IMG/VR virus record: IMGVR_UViG_3300021387_001337
Coordinates: 6,483 to 70,482 of that record
Length of the DNA stretch: 64,000 bases
Source of the DNA: a virus
Lineage: Duplodnaviria > Caudoviricetes
Direction: 5' to 3' (one strand)
The position numbers were made by a program, and so were the translations under genes. Shown here in pieces: positions 3,001 to 56,743 of this stretch; position 1 is the first letter of the stretch; each line of letters starts with the position of its first letter. A model generated the notes under the pieces. The model had not been told where the DNA came from. It worked only from the letters and a program-made list of their open reading frames with translations, and did no database searches.

Positions 3001-4558
3001 AGCTACTCCACAGAATTTGACTCCACAAGGAGATGGGGCTATAGTAGCAGGAGATGGTAATCAGGTACTTGAAGACTCAGGTGCTAATTTAGGAGGTAAC
3101 AATAATGGCTCCCTCCCCCCAACTCCTCCTCGCAGGAATCCTAACCTTGAAAGAGCAGAGGCTACTACCAGAAGGATTGTGGAGGATAGCAAGGAATTCC
3201 AGCTGTCAGAGGATGAGACCTATTATTATATCATAGACAAGAACACTGGTAAGGAAGTTAAATACCTCCGTGTAACTACAGTGATTGGTGCTGATGAGAG
3301 TGTGCCTCAGTGGACACCTACCATTGATGAAATCTTGAATAAGCTGAAGGAAAGACACTCTATCAGTAATGATGCATACTCAGAGAGTTACAAGGATAGT
3401 CAGGAGATGAGTAGGAAACTAAATATTCCTATTGCAGAGATTCGCAGAGCTATAGCAGAACTTAGAACTGCTCATAATAAGGAGAAGTATGGTGCTTGGG
3501 CCACACCTTCTACCTCTATTGGTAATAGCTTTGATACTATCACCCGTGACTTCTTGGCAGGACACTTGAAAGCAGAGTATCCCAATGTGTCACAGGATGT
3601 ATTGAATGTCTTTGTACAGCAGCTGACTCTGTTTAAGAATGATTTAGACTCAAGAGGTATTCATATAGTCTCTGAAGGAGTAATGGCACATGGCACTATT
3701 ACTATGACAGATGATGATGAGAATACCCATGATGTAAAGGTTGCAGGTACTCTTGATTTGTTTGGTTATGATGATAATGGTAACTTCTATATCTTTGATA
3801 TGAAAACTACCAGAAAGCATACAGACCAGAAATTACAGGACGAAAAGGCTAAGTGGTCAAGACAGATAAGTATGTATGCTGACCTGCTTAAGCAGACTTA
3901 TGGCATTGATATAACTCCAAACCATCTGAGAATTATTCCTATCAATGTTAATTTCCCAACTCCTATGGGCAAGAGAGAGGAGTATCTTGATCCAACAGGT
4001 CCTGCATACTCAGAGACTGCTGAAGGACAGTTACAGATGACTTATAGAGGCCATGAGCCTGAGGACTTCAAGATGACTATGCCTCAGAACCCTAAGGAGA
4101 ACAATGGTGATAATGCTGTAGGTATGAGGAAGACTGCCTATAAAGAGCAGTTCCAGCCTGGTTATACAAGGTTTAATATCAACTGGGATAATCTTAGTAG
4201 TGAAGACCAAGATATTGCTTCAGCCCTAACTACACAGACAGGAGGTACAGGAGAAACTTCTGGCAGTGCTCCTTCATCAGCACATATAGAAACGCCTCAG
4301 AGAAGAAGTCCTAGCTTTATGGATATGGGTAATCTAGGTTTTGAGGAGCATCAGGAAGCAGGTCCTACAGCAGCTCCTATAGTTCCTAATGGCCAATCAG
4401 AGGTATTACCCCAATGGCGCAGACTTAGTGCAGCAGTCAAGGGGTTCCTGACAGACAACTATGGTATTGAGAGTGTTGAGGAGTATAATGATATGCTCAA
4501 TGACCCAGCCCTATCAGAAGCAGTAGTCCATGATTTAAAGTGTCATGGATTGATATAA
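2..4558 (+). CDS. Giant virion (cargo/ejection-type) protein, 5'-truncated by the window edge, with a PD-(D/E)XK nuclease-like domain near the C-terminus
   Basis: Frame is open from nt 2 (EQGKQDTK...) through the track ORF 80-4558. Motif AGTLDLFGYDDNGNFYIFDMKT...RQISMYADLL at about 3740-3890. Size and P/Q/A-rich linkers fit crAss-like large virion proteins. Confidence 0.7.
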   Translation, partial: EQGKQDTKSIYNSAQQEVIDNLVQQGMAQDADFLDKVVDMGRLEKGIKDYHQQYQAILSDPKAYQNYVQRAKYNAQRDLTRRRAERIAGIQNFQEYSQELDRLTANASQQEMNEIMSVLREQDRRNQQPQEEGQTPTKSNFQRYMENIQKQGGLIRQFAKNPNLTDNDQSLLIDAMQYLSSKGIDVTDREAAVEALIERDEQGNQGGKFRQFVEAKNDQRLPQQRTFMPVFTSIGQVVSQYVDLINGQQTDAINRGNLQPTVQPAATPDTSGAPAAQPQTSPVSTDSSLPTPSPATQPGPAPAGPSLFNIGYSSADGGQFVDGDGTVATGAQTQSMQQKQQEGSKEEEQKSNLRKNFEAVTTPEIAKMLDDAAGTIRNGNFSEEVRDLAWQYLMELSVNTDNNYPTLDDLMTDIQTQVNRLKTQANMQEEEDNNFSKAAGLLQGVYNSLSTKKLRGRRRSAPMPSARPENPRAAWIHTANIAYMERQNPDAWAVRFTDDYAIDEWNRDHVIDRKDPVYFITDSDWTAEVTMQMNNGEGRNYDTLTDMPVVAAVRVEAPQNPANTTAIEVDGLWYQPIGIMPSSKAKSVSGAALTEEIRKVASKEQGRHLITANGMPNGQPLITHVYGVNYLTAHHPDASNPAQRENNEENNSDIIDAVLRSLPKASEDRLRAMSKQEMLADPEYQEARSKFLDGLQWNGEGSGTYENQLTFTPENYRQGETGNPMIVFTRPMAETTSRNGEETLPEVLANEPLDQVVGFNSRTERLFNEIIRPLFQYLPMKDRNGDKSAKLITQTDVDANPNAFQEECDRLTKMLNGFDGSNSSRGLRGVSDFLYINPKSGWSIKVTAPEGLQTIGTDVTNSESVYKIFYVNNDPEIAPIEIGTITMNADSSNSPANNIAAMGLLKNIMWDGQQVRDFLNWQVPKTDAQNLKNPDKSRSSQARRNYASIVDDDILTLAGSSIVYDVDGVKLNAPITVDGQGHTRIVFPQDTVVNADNAQPATPQNLTPQGDGAIVAGDGNQVLEDSGANLGGNNNGSLPPTPPRRNPNLERAEATTRRIVEDSKEFQLSEDETYYYIIDKNTGKEVKYLRVTTVIGADESVPQWTPTIDEILNKLKERHSISNDAYSESYKDSQEMSRKLNIPIAEIRRAIAELRTAHNKEKYGAWATPSTSIGNSFDTITRDFLAGHLKAEYPNVSQDVLNVFVQQLTLFKNDLDSRGIHIVSEGVMAHGTITMTDDDENTHDVKVAGTLDLFGYDDNGNFYIFDMKTTRKHTDQKLQDEKAKWSRQISMYADLLKQTYGIDITPNHLRIIPINVNFPTPMGKREEYLDPTGPAYSETAEGQLQMTYRGHEPEDFKMTMPQNPKENNGDNAVGMRKTAYKEQFQPGYTRFNINWDNLSSEDQDIASALTTQTGGTGETSGSAPSSAHIETPQRRSPSFMDMGNLGFEEHQEAGPTAAPIVPNGQSEVLPQWRRLSAAVKGFLTDNYGIESVEEYNDMLNDPALSEAVVHDLKCHGLI

Positions 4559-49573: not shown

Positions 49574-50245
49574 TTAATACTCTTCAAACCACTCTATACC
49601 ATAGCCATTTTGACTAATAAGAATGGAGTTAATCTCTTGCCAAATGTCAGAAGGCATTTTCTGCTTCTGACGAGCATACCATGAAGGGTGTCTGATTCTA
49701 ATCACATGATTGAACTGCTTGTTAATGTATGGCTCCAGTGTCTGAGCCTGAGTTCCCATGAGTACATAAACCAGCCCTGTATGGTACATTGAGAGATTAG
49801 TGAGTAAGGACTTGATGAAAGGCCTCCATAAGAGAGTATGGCTTCCTACCCTTCCTACTTCACAGGAAAGTGCTGAGTTTAACAACAGCACCCCCTGTGC
49901 TTCCCACTTCTCCAAATCTGAAGCAAAGTTAATGGTTCTGTGGGGGATTGTATAATCAATAACTGATTCCTTAAGAACTTCTAAGGAGGGGGAATATTGC
50001 GATTCTGGTGTATCAGGGCTATTGGCAAAGGCAATTCCTGTAGCTACTCCTTTCTGGGGATAGGGGTCCTGAGCAAGTATTACTACACGAAGATTACTGA
50101 GAGAACACAATCTGAAGGCTTTGAATACATCTTTAAGTTGAGGACAAATAGAATAAGAAGAGACTGATAGTTTCTTTATGATTCTATCAGCCTCTTGTAA
50201 GTCTACTACCTTAGACCAGTCTCCAAAATACTCTTGTATAGTCAT
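49574..50245 (-). CDS. ung: Uracil-DNA glycosylase (family 1)
   Basis: ILAQDPYP, GVLLLN, HPSW. Confidence 0.92.
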   Translation of the reverse strand: MTIQEYFGDWSKVVDLQEADRIIKKLSVSSYSICPQLKDVFKAFRLCSLSNLRVVILAQDPYPQKGVATGIAFANSPDTPESQYSPSLEVLKESVIDYTIPHRTINFASDLEKWEAQGVLLLNSALSCEVGRVGSHTLLWRPFIKSLLTNLSMYHTGLVYVLMGTQAQTLEPYINKQFNHVIRIRHPSWYARQKQKMPSDIWQEINSILISQNGYGIEWFEEY

Positions 50246-51009
50246 CTTTGCAATAATTCATCTATATGGTCAAGTGCTAATTGTAGTAGATCTTTGTTGG
50301 TAACAGAAATAGAAGGAACCTCTGACTTCTTAATAGTAAAAGGACACTCATCAATTTCTACCTTTACCTGCCAGCAACCCCTATGTGAGAAGGGTGCTCC
50401 TTGTTCCAAGAAAAAGGCTGTATTAGGATGGCAGGGAGTATAGATGAGATTGTTGAGACTGCTGACTAGTGCCTTGTTTACAATAAATCTTTGTAGGGCA
50501 TCTTCTTTTGATACACATATACCAGGGTTAATCCTAAGTATAGGTCTTTTATAGTAGTATTTTATCCTGCCTTCACTATCACTTTTCTTTTCCAATATCC
50601 ATGATAGCATCATCAGAGGCTTAAAATTGGAGTTAAAGATACTCCCAAAAGTGCAATAATATGCATCGGCAGCATTAGGAATAGACACCTTTGTAAGATG
50701 TTTTGAGAATTTGGTAGACAAACAATCTCTCATAATTGCATCAAGTGACTTATAATCAGAGCTAAGACCACAAGAATACAATTCAGCTACTAGCATATCA
50801 GTATGCAGTGACTGCCTATTTATATCTAAAAAAGCATCAAAGGCAAACGCAGGCACTTCAATAACATCTTGATTAATGGGAATCTCCATAAATAGAGCAG
50901 AAGTGGTACGAATATTGGGTGTAGTCCTATAGCCATATCTTCTCAATACAGAATTTGAATCACTATCCTGAAAGATTGAACGAATAACAGAGTCAAGTGT
51001 TGCAGCCAT
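50242..51009 (-). CDS. Hypothetical protein coupled to the E1 and UDG genes
   Basis: TAATG overlap with the ThiF stop; ATGA overlap with the UDG start. Confidence 0.75.
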   Translation of the reverse strand: MAATLDSVIRSIFQDSDSNSVLRRYGYRTTPNIRTTSALFMEIPINQDVIEVPAFAFDAFLDINRQSLHTDMLVAELYSCGLSSDYKSLDAIMRDCLSTKFSKHLTKVSIPNAADAYYCTFGSIFNSNFKPLMMLSWILEKKSDSEGRIKYYYKRPILRINPGICVSKEDALQRFIVNKALVSSLNNLIYTPCHPNTAFFLEQGAPFSHRGCWQVKVEIDECPFTIKKSEVPSISVTNKDLLQLALDHIDELLQR

Positions 51010-52295
51010 TACTTAATAGTTTTAAAGATCATATTTTGTGCATCATACTCAGTAAAGAAAGGCAAGTCATAAGGAATGGCTGGATTAAGAGTATTAGCTA
51101 CCCAATTGGTAAATAGGTTTACTATGACTGAACCAATCATACAAGCAAGATAGGTGGTCTGCTTGAGTGAACACTGAGTGGCATCTGCCTCTGCATCAGT
51201 GAAGAGATACTTATGCTGATATTCACTGAGAGCCCATTCGTTATCTCCTGTAATACAAAATACCTGAAGAGTATCTATTGACAATCTGCCATCCAACAGC
51301 AAGCACTTGTATCTTTCCTCATCAGGCTTACTATTTACATGTTCTAACCATTTACTAAAGAAAACTCTTCTAGCTGTCATATTGTCAAAGCCACAAATCA
51401 TAATATCACCAGCCTCATAGTTTTGTGTAAACTTATCTTTAATGGCATAGATACTCCTCATGGTAGTATAGCTACGTATCATATCAGCCATAGCATCTAC
51501 TTTTGCTTTACCTATATCTTCTATACAGTAAAGCTGTCCTGACATGTTAGCTTGTTCTACTATATCATCATCATACATGAAGAGGGCTTCAGGATTCATA
51601 CGGGCTAACTGAAGGACAGTCCAAGAACCAATACCCCCACAACCTGCAAGAATAATACGGGCCTTCTGAATTGCATTATACCATTCAGTGCCTGAAAATC
51701 TGGAGGTAGCGTCATTTATCAGTAGGGTAGAAGAGTTGGGAGCTAGCAGAAGTTCTGTTATAGAAGGCTCTTGCTGTTCTGCTACATCAAATGCCTCCAT
51801 ATCATCCTGAGATACTTCTTCATCAGGATTTTCATTAACACCCTGAACACCCTGATTAGTTCCCTCATGGATAACAGGAACATCTATAACTTCTCCATTT
51901 GGCAAATGAAAGTGTATATCATGAGGTTCCACTCCAGATTCAAGATGCATCCCCATATTAACAGGGGTCACACTTCTAGATTCTATCAGTTCATCCCAGT
52001 CTCTGTCTTCTTCTGCATCAAGATCCCTGCCTTCTCCACTATTCTCATTATACTCGTCAGTATTCTCTCCTTCTTCCTCTTCCTCAACCTCTTCTGCTTC
52101 ATCATACTCTGGCTCTTGGAAACCATTGTCTGCAAGAATGTCATTGAAATCATCAAGAGGAATATTAGAAGATGGAGATTCTCCCTGATGTTGCTGTGAT
52201 ATAACAGATACTGTATCAGAGCTTGCAGGAACAGTTATTTCCCTATTTCCCTCACTAATACCCAGAGAATTCAACCAATCATCTAGATTATTCAT
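51009..52295 (-). CDS. E1-like ThiF/MoeB adenylating enzyme with acidic N-terminal extension
   Basis: GCGGIG, YDDDIVEQANMSGQ, KAKV, CGFDNMTAR, LDGR; candidate catalytic Cys in ATQCSLKQT. Confidence 0.9.
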   Translation of the reverse strand: MNNLDDWLNSLGISEGNREITVPASSDTVSVISQQHQGESPSSNIPLDDFNDILADNGFQEPEYDEAEEVEEEEEGENTDEYNENSGEGRDLDAEEDRDWDELIESRSVTPVNMGMHLESGVEPHDIHFHLPNGEVIDVPVIHEGTNQGVQGVNENPDEEVSQDDMEAFDVAEQQEPSITELLLAPNSSTLLINDATSRFSGTEWYNAIQKARIILAGCGGIGSWTVLQLARMNPEALFMYDDDIVEQANMSGQLYCIEDIGKAKVDAMADMIRSYTTMRSIYAIKDKFTQNYEAGDIMICGFDNMTARRVFFSKWLEHVNSKPDEERYKCLLLDGRLSIDTLQVFCITGDNEWALSEYQHKYLFTDAEADATQCSLKQTTYLACMIGSVIVNLFTNWVANTLNPAIPYDLPFFTEYDAQNMIFKTIK

Positions 52296-53601
52296 AAATG
52301 TAACGCATTAAAACTTCTTTATAATCATCCATATAAACATTTACACCATCAGGAGCATACTGATATAGTTCAGTATATATAGCAGAGGCAACTTTACTCT
52401 GAATTAACTCCCAGTCGTCAATAATTTCTGAAGGAATGTCATCATCATCAATCAAATATTGATTTGTCATAAACTCTACTATAAACTCCTTCCACTCATT
52501 AAACTGAGAAGATTCATTGCCATCAGGTCCAAATATTTCCCCATACTTCTTATTCATCCATCGGTTTATCCATTGTTTCAGGTCTATGTTATCACTTACT
52601 ATAAGGGAGCAAGTAACCATTTGACAGACTAACTTATGAATAATAGTTGGATCTGGTTCCCATTTAGAAGTATCTATCTTACCCATTTCCTCCTCAGAGA
52701 AGAGTGTAGGCTCTTGATTAAATGTTTCTTTAGTTTCCGCAGCTTTCTTTTCATTCTGCCAGTCACGGAAGGAATAGTCCTCATCAAAATCCCTAAGTGC
52801 TGGATTAATTATCTTAGTACCATTAGGAATCCAAGGACTTTTGCTATTGTTAGAAGTGTTAACAGTAGGAGTTACAGGAGTTACTACAGCCTTTTTCTTC
52901 TTAGCCTCAATCTCATCAAATCTTGTATCAAGATAGGCCAAAGGATTGTCTACCTTCTCTACTTGAATATCCAGCATAAAGTACTCAATAACTTCTTTAT
53001 CAATTATCTGAGTACTTTCAGACATAGTATCTTCTCCAGTTTTGATAGTCCCTTCTCCAAAGAACTCATAACTTGTGCCAAGAGATTTAGTTACTACTTC
53101 AGACTTGGATTGAATCTTTCTTGTTAAAGCAGCTACATAAGTACCTCTGGTATCTACTACAAGTGATACAAAGCAGTTAGTATCATTACCTTCACTCCTT
53201 ATAGTATTAAAGTCTGTCCCACTTATAAACGCACCTAGTTGGTGATGTGAATGCACCAAGCCTATATCACAACCAAAGAGATCAATATTATCAGCAATAT
53301 ATCCAACCACACTTTCATCCATCTTAAAGTCAGTGAAAGTGCCAGAGCCTAAATCCATAGGGAATATGTCCTGACAGTGAATCTCTAAGTCATCTTGCTT
53401 AAAACTGCCAGTATGATTATAGAATAATACTCCAGACCATTCAGTAGATGGAAACTTGCGGATAAGATATCTGATTTTTTCTTCTACATTGCGAGGTACA
53501 AAGAGTTTATAGGTAGTAGACGCTTTGATGAGTGGGGGCAGGGAGGGCTGTTGCTGAAGAGCTGGAGCTAGCATCCTGCTGGTGTTGTCTTGTATATTCA
53601 T
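52288..53601 (-). CDS. JAB/JAMM metallo-isopeptidase
   Basis: TEWSG...HSHHQLGAFISGTD is an exact E...HxH-x7-S-x2-D motif. Confidence 0.9.
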   Translation of the reverse strand: MNIQDNTSRMLAPALQQQPSLPPLIKASTTYKLFVPRNVEEKIRYLIRKFPSTEWSGVLFYNHTGSFKQDDLEIHCQDIFPMDLGSGTFTDFKMDESVVGYIADNIDLFGCDIGLVHSHHQLGAFISGTDFNTIRSEGNDTNCFVSLVVDTRGTYVAALTRKIQSKSEVVTKSLGTSYEFFGEGTIKTGEDTMSESTQIIDKEVIEYFMLDIQVEKVDNPLAYLDTRFDEIEAKKKKAVVTPVTPTVNTSNNSKSPWIPNGTKIINPALRDFDEDYSFRDWQNEKKAAETKETFNQEPTLFSEEEMGKIDTSKWEPDPTIIHKLVCQMVTCSLIVSDNIDLKQWINRWMNKKYGEIFGPDGNESSQFNEWKEFIVEFMTNQYLIDDDDIPSEIIDDWELIQSKVASAIYTELYQYAPDGVNVYMDDYKEVLMRYIYE

Positions 53602-55894
53602 TTGTATAATGATAATTTATGATTTTAAGAATGTTATTCAATATATACATGGAGAGACTATGACTGAGCACAATACTCTCCTGAGGAGTGAATTCAGTAG
53701 AACCGCTGATTTTCAAAGTGACATCATTACCCTTGAAGGTGCATACTTTCTTGCCTATATAGTCTTCCAACCTCAAGTTGTCCAGACTTCTGGAACCATT
53801 AGGATCAAAGAACTTGCCTCCAGCTACTATAGCACGATTAATAATTTGCCTATCGAACATTCTAGAAACAAGACTTTTCTCTACATAGTATTTATTAATC
53901 CAGTCTATAAAAGCATTACTAACATCAAGAATATATTCATAATATGACATACCAACTATAAAATGATCCTGCTGATAACTAATTGCTAGATGTCCATTCT
54001 TTAGGTAATATTGAATGAATTTCTGAAGGCCTGCCCTAGTGAGGGTATGCTCAACTTGATTTAGTATATTACCTGCTTCACACTCATTAAATCTATTATA
54101 GTCCCTCAGATTTGAATTAATATTGACTTCCTCAAGATGTCTGTAAGGCACCCCACTAAGAGATTCTACAGTAACATACCTAGATAGTTCTTCACAAAAA
54201 AGCATCCATTTAATTTCATCAAAGCCCTCGGAGAAAGCACTTTGCAGACTATGAATGGTATCTTTGATGGGCCCTGTACCTAAGCATGGGTCTTGAAAAA
54301 CTGTCAAATCATCCTTCGGAATACTACAAATATGAGACATTTTGTTATCACTAAGGCTCTTTATCCTTAGTATCTTGTTTTTATATACTTACTGTATCTG
54401 TTATATATGTGGTATAACAATCTTTTGTTTATACTTTTACAAAAAATTTAGGAATTATGAAAAAAGTACAATTAAAAGATTTTGATTCTCAAATTGTCAA
54501 ATTGAAGACAGACGGTCTTAGTTATGAAGAAATTGCTAGTATTTTACATTTAAAGAAAAATTCAGTTGTAGCCTATATAAAAAGGCTTTATCCAGAACTC
54601 AAGACTTTAAATATGATTAGAGGCAATACTTCTTATTTCCATAATATAGATAGTTATGCCAAAGCCTATTTACTAGGTTTTATAGCTGCTGATGGGGCTA
54701 TAGTTAAGCAACGCAACACTACATATTTAACAATAACTATTAACTATGAAGATAAATCTGTTCTTGAATTTTTACAATCGGAACTACAAGATCATAGAAA
54801 ATTAACAGAAATCATAAAAGCATCTTCTTTTGATGCTAATAAAAAGATTCACCATATTCGTTTTTGTATAGGTTCATCTGAGATAGCCGAAGATTTACAA
54901 AACATTGGTATAACTCCAAATAAAAGCTTAACTATGGGTAACATTATTACTAATATACCCTTGAACTATAGAGATGCTTTTATTATTGGTTATTTTGATG
55001 GTGATGGAAGTGTTAGTAGAATACAACATTCTCCTAATAATAGGAGTTTAATCATACAGATAAGGGGAACATTCTCCTTTTTAGAAGGGATTTCCAATCA
55101 TCTATGTATTCCAACTTCTTTTATTAAACAATATGATTCAATATCACAATTAAATATAACAAATAAGAAGTATATATCCAGATTTTTCCAATGTTATGCA
55201 AACTTACCTTTTTACTTTAAAAGGAAATATGATAAGTTTGATAATTGGATTTGTCCAGATAAAAGGTATAAACAAGTTCAGACTATATCATCATCTGTAG
55301 CATAAAACTACAGAGCTGGGCACTCGTGTCACTATTATATTCTGCAATTAGCAGTTTCAAGTGTTAGTCGTTGAACCTTCCAAAGGTTTTTGCACCTAAG
55401 GCTTGGCTGCTGATTGTCTGCTTTTTCAGATTTTCCAGCAATTCACCCAGTTTAAACTGCACTCTTAGTTAATGCATATAATCACAAACCCACTGTTCTA
55501 GGGTGTAAGTTGATCTATTGAGAGTAAAACCTCTATACTCTACAGGAATCATGCCTTTGGCATCAAGTGTTATTTTTGCATACAAGTCATATATTAATAT
55601 AGACCTATCATTTTCATTAGTTACCTTGACTGTAGGCCAATACACTAAGATAAAAGGATGGATGCCTGCATAACTTCTGGCAACACCATTGAATGTTCTG
55701 CCATCTGCTTCATAACCACTACCATCCTCTCTCATAGGAATCTCAGCAACAGCAAAGGATTCAGCTATAGTATCATCATCTGGAAGACCTTGAAGGTCAA
55801 CAAACCCCTCTCCAAAGTAATTTTGGAATACCTCATAGACATTATAGACATCAGTAAAAGCCTTATGCCTGAAATCATTGATTGTGTAAAACAT
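53507..55894 (-). CDS. Prokaryotic E2 (UBC-fold)-like protein, spliced: exon 1 55472-55894 plus exon 2 53507-54337 (417 aa)
   Basis: Joining gives DYMH|SHICSIPKDDLTVFQDPCLG, an E2-type HxH...C-L-G active site; the frame is preserved exactly. Confidence 0.8.
54408..54439 (+). promoter_or_regulatory. Candidate internal promoter for the antisense endonuclease
   Basis: TGTG-N20-TACTTTTA, 17 nt before the ATG; one mismatch in each element. Confidence 0.4.
54457..55305 (+). CDS. Double-motif LAGLIDADG homing endonuclease, antisense to the host intron
   Basis: YLLGFIAADG and FIIGYFDGDG; N-terminal HTH-like LSYEEIASILHLKKNSV; very AT-rich. Confidence 0.92.
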   Translation: MKKVQLKDFDSQIVKLKTDGLSYEEIASILHLKKNSVVAYIKRLYPELKTLNMIRGNTSYFHNIDSYAKAYLLGFIAADGAIVKQRNTTYLTITINYEDKSVLEFLQSELQDHRKLTEIIKASSFDANKKIHHIRFCIGSSEIAEDLQNIGITPNKSLTMGNIITNIPLNYRDAFIIGYFDGDGSVSRIQHSPNNRSLIIQIRGTFSFLEGISNHLCIPTSFIKQYDSISQLNITNKKYISRFFQCYANLPFYFKRKYDKFDNWICPDKRYKQVQTISSSVA

Positions 55895-55926
55895 TGCTCT
55901 ATGTATAATAATAAGGTGGAAAATAA

Positions 55927-55955
55927 TAGGGCAGGATAACTTAATACCCTGCCCA
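55927..55955 (-). terminator. Hairpin/attenuator between the Ubl and E2 genes
   Basis: Minus strand reads ATGGGCAGGGTA-TTAAGT-TATCCTGCCCTAT then TATTTT. Confidence 0.6.
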
Positions 55956-55987
55956 TTGACACAACCAAATTCAAAAACAGCTATGAG

Positions 55988-56743
55988 TTAGTGCCTAATG
56001 CTTCTCATCATATCATTCATATCATCTGCAGTTATCTCAAGCTTCTCTTCTTCCAAGCGGTGGGCCAGCTCTGTGAGTAGGTTTGCCAATGCGGTCACAT
56101 CTTCACTGGATAACAGATTCTCCTTGACCATAGACTTGATGCCAGTATAAAACCATTCCACTGTGTTTGCATGAGGAGCAGTAGCAAGTACTTTCTCAGG
56201 AGTATTTACTTCCTCCTTCACCTTCCCCAGGTCTTTCAGTTCCTCACGAACCTCATTGATAGCCTCTTTATTGCTAGAAATATTTTTCTCAGCAGTATTA
56301 GCAAAGAAGTTAATCAGCTTATCACTAGAGATACGAGTCCAATTGTCACCAAACCCTGCCTTAATAGCCTCTCCAAGATTATTCTTCTTAATATAATCTC
56401 CAAACTCCTTACGATTAGTAGGATATGCACCTGAGCGAATTTGCTTGTTAGTATTAGTCAGCAACATTACCAGATTGTTAGTAGTCTGACCTTTAAACTG
56501 TACATTAGTAGGCAGCTGAGTTTCAGGTGAGAGTAGCTGAGTTTTGGTGATACCTTCAGTAAATGTGAGTCCCGAAATATTAATGGGTGATTCATTCTTA
56601 ATCCAAGTCTGGCCAACCATCTTATAGACATTCTCATTACGACGAATAGCATCTTGAAGCTGCCCTAAAGTCTCTGCATCTGTCACTACACGATATTTAC
56701 TCTGATCACGATTGTTGGCAATTAATATTTCACGTTCTGTCAT
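55988..56743 (-). CDS. Putative ubiquitin-like (beta-grasp) precursor with C-terminal extension
   Basis: N-terminal about 105 aa with a beta-grasp-like pattern (REILIA...YRVVTDAETLGQL...NNLVMLLT) ending KQIRSG|A; first gene of the E2-JAB-E1 run. Confidence 0.6.
   Translation of the reverse strand: MTEREILIANNRDQSKYRVVTDAETLGQLQDAIRRNENVYKMVGQTWIKNESPINISGLTFTEGITKTQLLSPETQLPTNVQFKGQTTNNLVMLLTNTNKQIRSGAYPTNRKEFGDYIKKNNLGEAIKAGFGDNWTRISSDKLINFFANTAEKNISSNKEAINEVREELKDLGKVKEEVNTPEKVLATAPHANTVEWFYTGIKSMVKENLLSSEDVTALANLLTELAHRLEEEKLEITADDMNDMMRSIRH

What the first reader, a model, noticed from the sequence alone, without database searches (positions are those of the whole stretch)
50242..56743. 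Apparently complete phage-encoded ubiquitin-like conjugation operon (Ubl-E2-JAB-E1-X)
Seen: five co-oriented genes. E2/JAB overlap by 95 nt, JAB/E1 by 8 nt and E1/X by TAATG. They carry an intact E1 nucleotide-binding motif and a candidate catalytic Cys, an exact JAMM motif, an E2 HSH...CLG site (visible only after splicing), and a beta-grasp-like domain ending in ...RSG. Established: E1/E2/JAB/Ubl sets form bacterial conjugation systems such as the anti-phage Bil systems, and ThiF-type genes are annotated in crAss-like genomes. Inference: here the phage carries the whole cascade in its replication block and may modify its own or host proteins, for example as counter-defence or to control replication proteins. 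I know of no functional characterisation of such a phage cascade.
Basis: partly seen in the sequence, partly recalled or inferred. Interest (0 to 1): 0.9.

Follow-up and report, generated by a model that had tools for sequence, protein, structure and literature searches.

The report
Ubiquitin-like tagging genes in crAss-like phage
A gut crAss-like phage keeps, between its DNA primase and uracil-DNA glycosylase genes, its own ubiquitin-like protein, trimming protease, activating enzyme and a probable transfer enzyme, a kit studied so far only as a bacterial anti-phage defence; tagging itself has not been shown.

Summary
On the minus strand, 56743-50242 carries five co-oriented, overlapping genes. 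The first is a 251-aa protein whose first 105 residues fold as a beta-grasp and end in an invariant SG followed by A. The second is a 417-aa protein split by a 1134-nt group I intron exactly at YMH|SHI. Then come a JAMM/JAB protease with all motif residues invariant, a ThiF-type E1 with an invariant Cys375, and an unknown 255-aa protein X.

The gene order primase-Ubl-E2like-JAB-E1-X is kept in all 12 relatives I inspected, including cultured crAss001 (gp79-gp75), Dulem virus 41 and Flavobacterium phage Fpv3.

It fails the defining features of Bil, Bub and CBASS Cap2/Cap3, so I class it as a new variant of a known kind. I found no paper describing it. This scan has already noted the same cassette on other DNA, in at least 50 genomes. 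Conjugation and its targets remain inferred.

New here: the same intron family sits in the JAB gene of a relative at the same H|SH tripeptide.

The parts
56429..56743 (-). Ubl domain (residues 1-105) of the 251-aa precursor. Beta-grasp fold ending ..KQIRSG.
55988..56428 (-). C-terminal extension of the Ubl precursor (residues 106-251, plus stop). Helical, with a conserved R111..K119..G132-N134-T136..L143 segment and a variable acidic/lysine linker. Presumed to be released by cleavage after G105.
   Evidence: Secondary structure and pLDDT. Conservation. Fpv3 gp55 aligns over the Ubl and the start of the extension, with ..KQVKSGG. (hhalign 97%). The reading of the first two helices as a helix-hairpin-helix DNA-binding motif is my inference and was not tested.
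55929..55954 (-). Terminator-like GC-rich hairpin plus U-run between the Ubl gene and the E2-like gene.
   Evidence: 10-bp stem with 6 GC pairs, then TATTATTTT. A hairpin plus U-run is present at the same place in L003, L008, L006 and crAss001, with a different stem sequence in L006 and crAss001.
55472..55894 (-). E2-like gene, exon 1 (141 codons, ends ..QWVCDYMH).
   Evidence: Alignment to intronless homologues.
54338..55471 (-). Group I intron (1134 nt) interrupting the invariant HSH motif of the E2-like gene.
   Evidence: Rfam RF00028, 69.7 bits, E 8e-17, core at 55495-55264. Junction CAT|TCT from alignment with L003. The last intron base is G.
54457..55305 (+). LAGLIDADG homing-endonuclease gene (282 aa) inside the intron, antisense to it.
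   Evidence: Pfam LAGLIDADG_3 at 8.9e-11 and PHROG 4645 'endonuclease' at 2e-43.
53507..54337 (-). E2-like gene, exon 2 (276 codons plus stop, starts SHICSIPKDDLTVFQDPCLG). The spliced product is 417 aa.
   Evidence: H141, S142, H143, C159, E199 and S200 (numbering of P0001) stay invariant out to crAss001, Dulem virus 41 and Fpv3. The fold matches are to UBC/UEV/RWD chains.
52288..53601 (-). JAB/JAMM metalloprotease (437 aa). The MPN+ domain is about residues 30-165; the remaining ~270 residues are a C-terminal domain of unknown function.
   Evidence: E54, H117, S118, H119, S127 and D130 are invariant. Pfam Prok-JAB is hit by 10 of 10 family members, best E 1.1e-5. Weak match to Rpn11 over the motif.
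51009..52295 (-). E1-like adenylating enzyme (428 aa). The ThiF core is residues ~186-428. The first ~185 residues are acidic, variable, and absent in some relatives.
   Evidence: Pfam ThiF 6.2e-19. NCBIfam ThiF 1.3e-19. PADLOC Cap2 'E1-E2' 6.6e-12 and BilD 1.9e-6. PDB profile hits to PaaA, MccB, UBA5, TcdA and ThiF. GxGGIGS, D242/D244, K265, D304, R337, Y359 and C375 are invariant. C375 is kept in crAss001, Dulem 41 and Fpv3.
50242..51009 (-). Protein X (255 aa), unknown. Translationally coupled to E1 (TAATG) and to the downstream UDG (4-nt overlap).
   Evidence: No hit in Pfam, PHROGs, PADLOC or NCBIfam and nothing usable in the ESM Atlas. A gene sits at this position in all relatives inspected. 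Only P53, Y117, G122, P162 and F224 are invariant.

Best explanation
This is a phage-run ubiquitin-like activation and, probably, conjugation cassette.

Proposed steps:
1. The 251-aa first product is a precursor. The JAB protease cuts after the invariant Ser104-Gly105 and frees a ~105-residue beta-grasp Ubl and a helical C-terminal fragment.
2. The ThiF-type E1 adenylates Gly105 with ATP and probably takes the Ubl onto its invariant Cys375.
3. The 417-aa UBC-like protein receives the Ubl on Cys159, next to the invariant HSH. It then passes it to lysines of phage or host proteins. Its large extra domains and/or protein X would supply target choice, because no E3 is encoded.
4. The JAB enzyme may also reverse the tagging.

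A conserved terminator-like hairpin after the Ubl gene would let the tag be made in excess over its enzymes.

Shown here: the folds and motifs of Ubl, JAB and E1; the conserved gene order; the precursor architecture; and splicing that restores the HSH..C motif.

Inferred: the cleavage site, the thioester relay, the E2 role, any conjugate, and the targets.

For: JAB: the full JAMM motif is invariant, and Prok-JAB is hit by 10 of 10 members.

E1: ThiF at 6e-19, with invariant nucleotide-binding residues and Cys375.

Linkage: the order is the same in 12 of 12 relatives inspected, and the genes overlap.

Precedent: in Type I Bub, a JAB domain cuts a Ubl precursor directly after a conserved Gly (PMC11601596).

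Selection: homing introns sit in the HSH motifs of the E2-like gene here and of the JAB gene in L009. Such elements typically settle in conserved, needed sequence.
Against: No biochemical evidence exists.

The protein is about 2.5 times the size of an E2, and the His-to-Cys spacing is 15 residues rather than about 8.

The best PDB sequence relatives of the E1 are PaaA, MccB and TcdA, which do not conjugate Ubls. Only its nucleotide-binding half aligns, so I could not show by alignment that Cys375 lies in the crossover loop.

X is unexplained. No target is known.
Confidence: 0.6

Rival explanations
1. Sulfur-carrier or other non-conjugating Ubl pathway. JAB exposes the C-terminal Gly and the E1 adenylates it, as with ThiS/MoaD, QbsE-QbsD or CysO-Mec+. 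The Gly is then turned into a thiocarboxylate, or otherwise used for making a small molecule or a modified nucleotide needed during replication. The 417-aa protein and X would be the downstream enzymes, not an E2.
Against: Pfam finds no rhodanese or other sulfurtransferase domain in the E1 or its neighbours. The tag ends SG, not GG. It is a 105-residue domain carrying a 145-residue extension. The UBC-like fold signal, though weak, recurs in two searches. X has no invariant Cys, His, Asp or Ser that would suggest an enzyme.
Confidence: 0.12
2. Processing-and-activation module without a transfer enzyme. JAB and E1 act on the precursor: cleavage, then C-terminal adenylation leading to self-ligation, cyclisation or a C-terminal adduct, as with MccB or PaaA. 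The 417-aa protein would be a replisome or DNA-binding factor that merely shares a UBC/RWD-like scaffold. The real payload could be the released helical C-terminal fragment.
Against: The invariant His-Ser-His and Cys in the loop after strand 4 are hard to explain for a purely structural domain. The Cys in the E1 is invariant. The 62-95 nt overlap of the E2-like and JAB genes is kept across relatives.
Confidence: 0.13
3. Anti-defence tool. The cassette is a captured and remodelled relative of host CBASS, Bil or Bub machinery. The phage would use it to undo or misdirect host Ubl-type defence conjugation, for example with JAB stripping host conjugates and E1/E2 loading a decoy tag.
For: All characterised bacterial E1/E2/JAB sets act in phage defence (PMC11601596). 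PADLOC Cap2 models are the best defence-library hits of the E1, at 6.6e-12.
Against: Similarity to the defence proteins is confined to about 90 residues of the generic nucleotide-binding fold. JAB, Ubl and the E2-like protein have no PADLOC hit. The cassette sits at a fixed place in the replication block in phages of Bacteroides and Flavobacterium alike, rather than in variable accessory regions. The E2-like family alone spans 2600 clusters at 50% identity, which points to an old core function.
Confidence: 0.1

Closest known systems
Bil (bacterial ISG15-like) systems BilA-BilB-BilC-BilD (Chambers et al., PMC10557695; as summarised in PMC11601596)
   Same: Four separate genes for a beta-grasp Ubl, an E2(-like) protein, a JAB peptidase and an E1, with no E3. 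Bil Ubl chains (8tyx_A, 8tyz_B) are among the fold matches of the phage Ubl. Cys residues are available in both E1 and E2, as in Bil's thioester chemistry.
   Different: The cassette is encoded by the phage, in its replication block, not by the host as a defence. The E1 is a single ~240-residue adenylation domain rather than the IAD-AAD-CYS architecture. The Ubl carries a 145-residue C-terminal extension. The E2-like protein is 417 aa, and neither it nor the Ubl or JAB has a PADLOC hit at E <= 1. There is an extra gene, X.
Type I Bub (6E.1) operons BubAB / BubCD / BubE (Ye et al. 2024, PMC11601596)
   Same: The Ubl is made as a precursor that a JAB domain cuts directly after a conserved Gly. 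The E1 is minimal and probably homodimeric, like ThiF or UBA5. The E2 is diverged. A His lies next to an invariant Ser in the E2 active-site region (HSH here; S333/H335 in BubB).
   Different: In Bub the Ubl is fused to the E2 and the JAB domain to the E1; here all four are separate genes and the Ubl is fused to a non-E2 helical domain. No DUF6527 (BubE) protein is present. Bub lacks Cys in the E1 crossover loop and in the E2 and works through oxyesters, whereas the phage proteins keep invariant Cys375 and Cys159. hhalign finds no sequence link.
Type II CBASS Cap2/Cap3
   Different: Cap2 is one E2-E1 fusion protein and conjugates the CD-NTase itself, with no beta-grasp Ubl. There is no CD-NTase here.
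Lambda/T1 tail assembly proteins TAPI (Ubl plus C-terminal domain) and TAPK (JAB) (Iyer et al. 2006, PMC1779556)
   Same: A phage-encoded beta-grasp domain ending in a conserved Gly and fused to a C-terminal domain, predicted to be released by a phage JAB peptidase.
   Different: TAPI and TAPK lie in the tail module and have no E1 or E2. The cassette here lies in the replication module and includes an E1 and a UBC-like protein.

Membership tests
Bil (BilABCD) | Beta-grasp Ubl with a C-terminal Gly available for activation | tested here: met
   [not shown]
Bil (BilABCD) | E2 (BilB) of UBC fold with a catalytic Cys | tested here: inconclusive
   [not shown]
Bil (BilABCD) | JAB/JAMM peptidase (BilC) | tested here: met
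   E..HSH..S..D invariant. Prok-JAB hit by 10 of 10 members.
Bil (BilABCD) | [quoted passage not shown] | tested here: not met
   There is a single ThiF core of ~240 residues; relatives have E1 proteins of only 228-312 aa in total. The PADLOC BilD match covers only ~100 residues at E 1.9e-6.
Type I Bub | Ubl-E2 fusion (BubAB) and JAB-E1 fusion (BubCD) | tested here: not met
   Four separate ORFs. The Ubl extension is helical, not UBC-like.
Type I Bub | DUF6527 serine protease BubE in the operon | tested here: not met
   No Pfam family at E <= 1 for X or for either E2-like exon, and none relevant for the Ubl precursor.
Type I Bub | Oxyester chemistry: no Cys in the E1 crossover loop or the E2 active site | tested here: not met
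   Invariant C375 in the E1 and C159 in the E2-like protein. Which residue is the nucleophile was not tested; S142 is also invariant.
CBASS type II (Cap2/Cap3) | E2-E1 fusion acting on a CD-NTase, with no separate Ubl | tested here: not met
   Separate genes and a beta-grasp Ubl are present. No nucleotidyltransferase lies in the block.
ThiS/MoaD-type sulfur-carrier systems | E1 with a rhodanese domain or partner sulfurtransferase; carrier ending GG; no E2 | tested here: not met
   Only the ThiF domain is found in the E1. The tag ends SG. A UBC-like protein is present. Thiocarboxylate formation itself is not testable here.
UBC/E2 superfamily (fold level) | N-terminal helix, four-stranded meander, then a loop with a conserved His motif followed by the catalytic Cys and a helix | tested here: inconclusive
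   [not shown]
Group I intron (Rfam RF00028) | Score above the family's gathering cut-off, and an in-frame exon junction after U with a terminal intron G | tested here: met
   69.7 bits against a cut-off of 50. Junction CAT|TCT; the intron ends ..aaaatG.

The most novel reading that the evidence does not exclude
Many crAss-like phages and their Flavobacterium-phage relatives run a complete protein-tagging pathway of their own. A Ubl is cut from a precursor, activated by a minimal E1, and passed through an oversized UBC-like enzyme to replication-associated phage or host proteins. This would be the first E1-E2-DUB-Ubl system shown to be operated by a bacterial virus rather than against one.
Probability: 0.45. 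Interest if true: 0.85.

Novelty: new variant of a known kind. Interest (0 to 1): 0.7.

Why it matters
Ubiquitin-like conjugation in bacteria has so far been characterised as host immunity against phages (CBASS Cap2, Bil, Bub). This cassette would put the same chemistry in the hands of the virus.

It sits in a fixed place in the replication module of a large clade that includes the cultured gut phages crAss001 and DAC15. The experiment is therefore feasible today.

If tagging is real, it opens three questions. What does a phage tag: its replisome, host defences, or host turnover machinery? How does a 417-aa UBC-like enzyme choose targets without an E3? How did these minimal E1 and E2 forms arise relative to the bacterial and eukaryotic ones?

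It would also replace the 'thiamine biosynthesis protein' annotations carried by most of the related phage records listed.

Tried and rejected
- Nucleotide search of the 6.5-kb block against phage records: no match.
- Sequence searches of the E2-like protein: Pfam for each exon; PDB profile search, 0 hits at E <= 10; Pfam on 27 members; PADLOC and NCBIfam. All found nothing relevant.
- The recurrent Pfam PF25565 'ubiquitin-like domain' hits (8 of 27 members, best 1.3e-4) map to residues 3-50 (helix 1 plus strand 1). They are below the cut-off, and I treat them as spurious.
- Foldseek against the PDB for the E2-like model: nothing at E <= 0.001. BFVD returned only uncharacterised phage relatives.
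- ESM Atlas: only a weak lead, one viral cluster with Prok-E2_D on 14% of its members, score 0.86. For X it gave nothing.
- Profile search of 1.84 billion representatives with the E2-like alignment: 2600 hits, but the 150 listed are all close relatives, so it gave no bridge to known E2 families.
- hhalign of the E2-like profile against both proteins of a Bub operon on a Methylomagnum plasmid: probability 0.1%.
- Search of the phage's own record for Prok-E2_D: nothing. A phylum-wide family search is not possible for a virus record.
- Search for free-standing short Ubls ending at the Gly: only 6 short hits. Most appear to be fragments on short contigs or frameshifted reads; one 93-aa form ends SGAISY. 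This is not decisive.
- X against Fpv3 gp51 and the Dulem 191-aa protein: hhalign probability 4.9% and 0.2%, so homology of 'X' beyond the close clade is unproven.
- PDB profile alignment of the E1 covers only the nucleotide-binding half, so I could not place Cys375 in the crossover loop by alignment.
- Literature: no paper in the library links crAss-like phages with ThiF, JAB or ubiquitin-like systems. The nearest precedent is Asgard virus 'Nidhogg', with three E1-like genes only.
- The Python machine was lost, so I could not make a systematic synteny count over all 80 loci. Twelve relatives were inspected by hand.
Full report
**What is there.** The window is part of a 70.5-kb IMG/VR virus record. 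Its replication block matches that of Bacteroides phage crAss001 gene for gene. On the minus strand, a Toprim primase (57784-56762) lies on one side and a uracil-DNA glycosylase (50245-49574) on the other. Between them lie five co-oriented genes:
- 56743-55988, 251 aa;
- 55894-55469 plus 54340-53507, one split gene;
- 53601-52288, 437 aa;
- 52295-51009, 428 aa;
- 51009-50242, 255 aa.

X also overlaps the UDG start by 4 nt.

**The split gene.** Rfam calls a group I intron on the minus strand at 55495-55264 (69.7 bits, cut-off 50, E 8e-17). A 282-aa LAGLIDADG endonuclease gene lies antisense inside it. Relatives have one uninterrupted gene of 378-444 aa. The two window ORFs align to it end to end. 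Exon 1 stops at ..DYMH and exon 2 resumes at SHICSIPKDD..PCLG, where L003 reads ..GYLHSHVSGIPKGD..PCLG. At the DNA level the junction is CAT|TCT and the intron's last base is G. The intron is 55471-54338 (1134 nt) and the spliced product is 417 aa.

**Ubl.** An AlphaFold2 model built from 27 homologues (mean pLDDT 76.6) has strand-strand-helix-strands over residues 4-97, then a low-confidence tail, then helices.
- Foldseek agrees and includes the Bil Ubl chains 8tyx_A and 8tyz_B.
- K100, I102, S104 and G105 are invariant and A106 nearly so. In Flavobacterium phage Fpv3 the equivalent motif is KQVKSGG.

The protein is therefore a Ubl precursor: a beta-grasp domain ending SG, followed by about 145 further residues. 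No relative with a free-standing Ubl ending at the Gly turned up.

**JAB.** E54, H117-S118-H119, S127 and D130 form the full JAMM motif and are invariant. All 10 members tested match Pfam Prok-JAB, best E 1.1e-5. About 270 C-terminal residues have no assignment.

**E1.** Pfam ThiF scores 6.2e-19. NCBIfam, PADLOC and PDB matches are all to E1-type adenylating enzymes. GxGGIGS, the Asp, Lys and Arg residues of the nucleotide site, Y359 and C375 are invariant. C375 persists in crAss001, Dulem virus 41 and Fpv3. From memory, its position just before the conserved ..KQTT..A.MIGS.. helix corresponds to ThiF Cys184 and UBA5 Cys250. The PDB alignments stop before this region, so this is inference. The first ~185 residues are acidic, variable, and missing in several relatives.

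**E2-like protein.** This is the weak link. No sequence method links it to any known family, and Foldseek finds no PDB match.
- The AlphaFold2 model of the intronless homologue P0001 is confident (pLDDT 83.6). P0001 is 62% identical to window exon 1 and 48% to exon 2.
- In the second look, 12 of ranks 2-14 are E2 chains, with 120-142 of 150-169 residues aligned at rmsd 4-5 A.
- The order of elements fits an E2: helix, four strands, invariant HSH, 15 residues, invariant Cys-x-Gly, helix.
- H141, S142, H143, C159, E199 and S200 stay invariant out to Fpv3. C189 does not.

The family is large: 2600 clusters at 50% identity.

**X.** X has no relatives of known function and no conserved catalytic-type residues.

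**Linkage.** The order primase-Ubl-E2like-JAB-E1-X-UDG holds in crAss001 (gp80 to gp74), bajarodcaudo virus 1, eight IMG/VR contigs and Dulem virus 41. In Fpv3 the UDG gene has moved ahead of the Ubl gene, but Ubl-E2like-JAB-E1-next gene stay together.

E1 relatives occur in 79 of 50,697 phage records, mainly Bacteroides crAss-like and Flavobacterium phages. The cassette is thus a trait of a clade, not of all phages in the collection searched.

A GC-rich hairpin with a U-run follows the Ubl gene here and in four relatives checked. The stem sequence differs in L006 and crAss001. This fits a conserved attenuator that sets the tag above its enzymes in amount.

**Mechanism.** My preferred reading (confidence 0.6) has four steps:
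1. JAB cleaves after G105.
2. The E1 adenylates the Ubl and takes it on C375.
3. The UBC-like protein takes it on C159.
4. The UBC-like protein transfers it to lysines of phage or host proteins, with its extra domains or X choosing the targets.

Cleavage of a Ubl precursor directly after a conserved Gly by the operon's own JAB domain has been shown for Type I Bub (PMC11601596). It was predicted long ago for lambda TAPI/TAPK (PMC1779556).

Because S142 next to two His is also invariant, an oxyester route as in Bub cannot be excluded.

The rivals are a sulfur-carrier pathway, a processing-only module, and an anti-defence decoy. Each is given with its tests in the rival explanations.

**Family membership.** The cassette works like Bil, with separate Ubl, E2, JAB and E1 genes and no E3. 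It fails Bil's defining E1 architecture. It fails Bub's fusions, BubE and Cys-free chemistry. It fails CBASS's E2-E1 fusion and CD-NTase substrate (membership table). I therefore class it as a new variant of a known kind.

**Novelty and earlier notes.** I found no paper on it. The nearest viral precedent is three E1-like genes in an Asgard virus. This scan has already flagged the same cassette in at least 50 other genomes. Those notes agree with my reading, and I retested their main claims here.

**A by-product.** In relative L009 the JAB gene is split inside its JAMM motif (..LVH|SHH..) by an intron that belongs to the same family as the one in the window.
- Its first ~130 nt and last ~50 nt are about 80% identical to the window's intron.
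- Its antisense LAGLIDADG protein is 47% identical to the window's (E 7e-77).
- Both insertions lie at CAT|TCN-CAT.

One mobile intron family has thus colonised the H|SH codons of two different genes of the cassette.

Noticed in passing
L009:3717-5676 (IMGVR_UViG_3300013936_000025), compared with window 54338-55471: The same group I intron family interrupts a different gene of the cassette. In L009 the JAB gene is split inside its JAMM HxH (..LVH|SHH..). The intron ends are ~80% identical to the window's E2-gene intron, and a homologous antisense LAGLIDADG ORF is 47% identical (E 7e-77). L009 also carries an extra sense LAGLIDADG_2 ORF at 3864-4475. Both insertions lie at CAT|TCN-CAT. The P9-like hairpin differs at paired positions so that pairing is kept (CTAAGG/CCTTAG against CCTAGG/CCTAGG). 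Rfam did not call the L009 intron at E <= 0.01.
   Followed up: partly
window 51741-52295 (E1 residues 1-185): The E1 has a long, acidic, low-complexity N-terminal extension (..EEVEEEEEGENTDEYNENSGEGRDLDAEEDRDWDE..). It is variable among relatives and absent in some, which have E1 proteins of 228-312 aa. Its role is unknown.
   Followed up: no
[not shown]
   Followed up: no
L084 (Xanthomonas phage PhiXhv-16, 86865-87548 of the record) and Erwinia phage Ep032: Jumbo phages carry a 228-aa ThiF homologue (26% identical). It lacks the conserved Cys and sits in a different context: after an 892-aa protein, before 70-aa and 228-aa ORFs and the topoisomerase genes. This may be a different E1-based module.
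   Followed up: no
P0123, P0128, P0135 and others: JGI names several close homologues of the Ubl precursor 'lysophospholipase L1-like esterase', and one 'Lhr-like helicase'. Nothing in the sequence or the model supports these names.
   Followed up: no
P0389 (93 aa): One metagenomic homologue of the Ubl ends only four residues after the SG motif (..KNISSGAISY), on a 2-kb contig. It is either a naturally short precursor or a truncated or frameshifted read.
   Followed up: no
L087 (Methylomagnum ishizawai plasmid pRS11DPr5, 26295-29000 of the record): A Bub-type operon (multiubiquitin protein, ThiF protein, DUF6527) lies next to an HTH plus ImmA/IrrE pair and near SprT-like and CHC2 zinc-finger genes. 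It turned up as a weak E1 hit.
   Followed up: no
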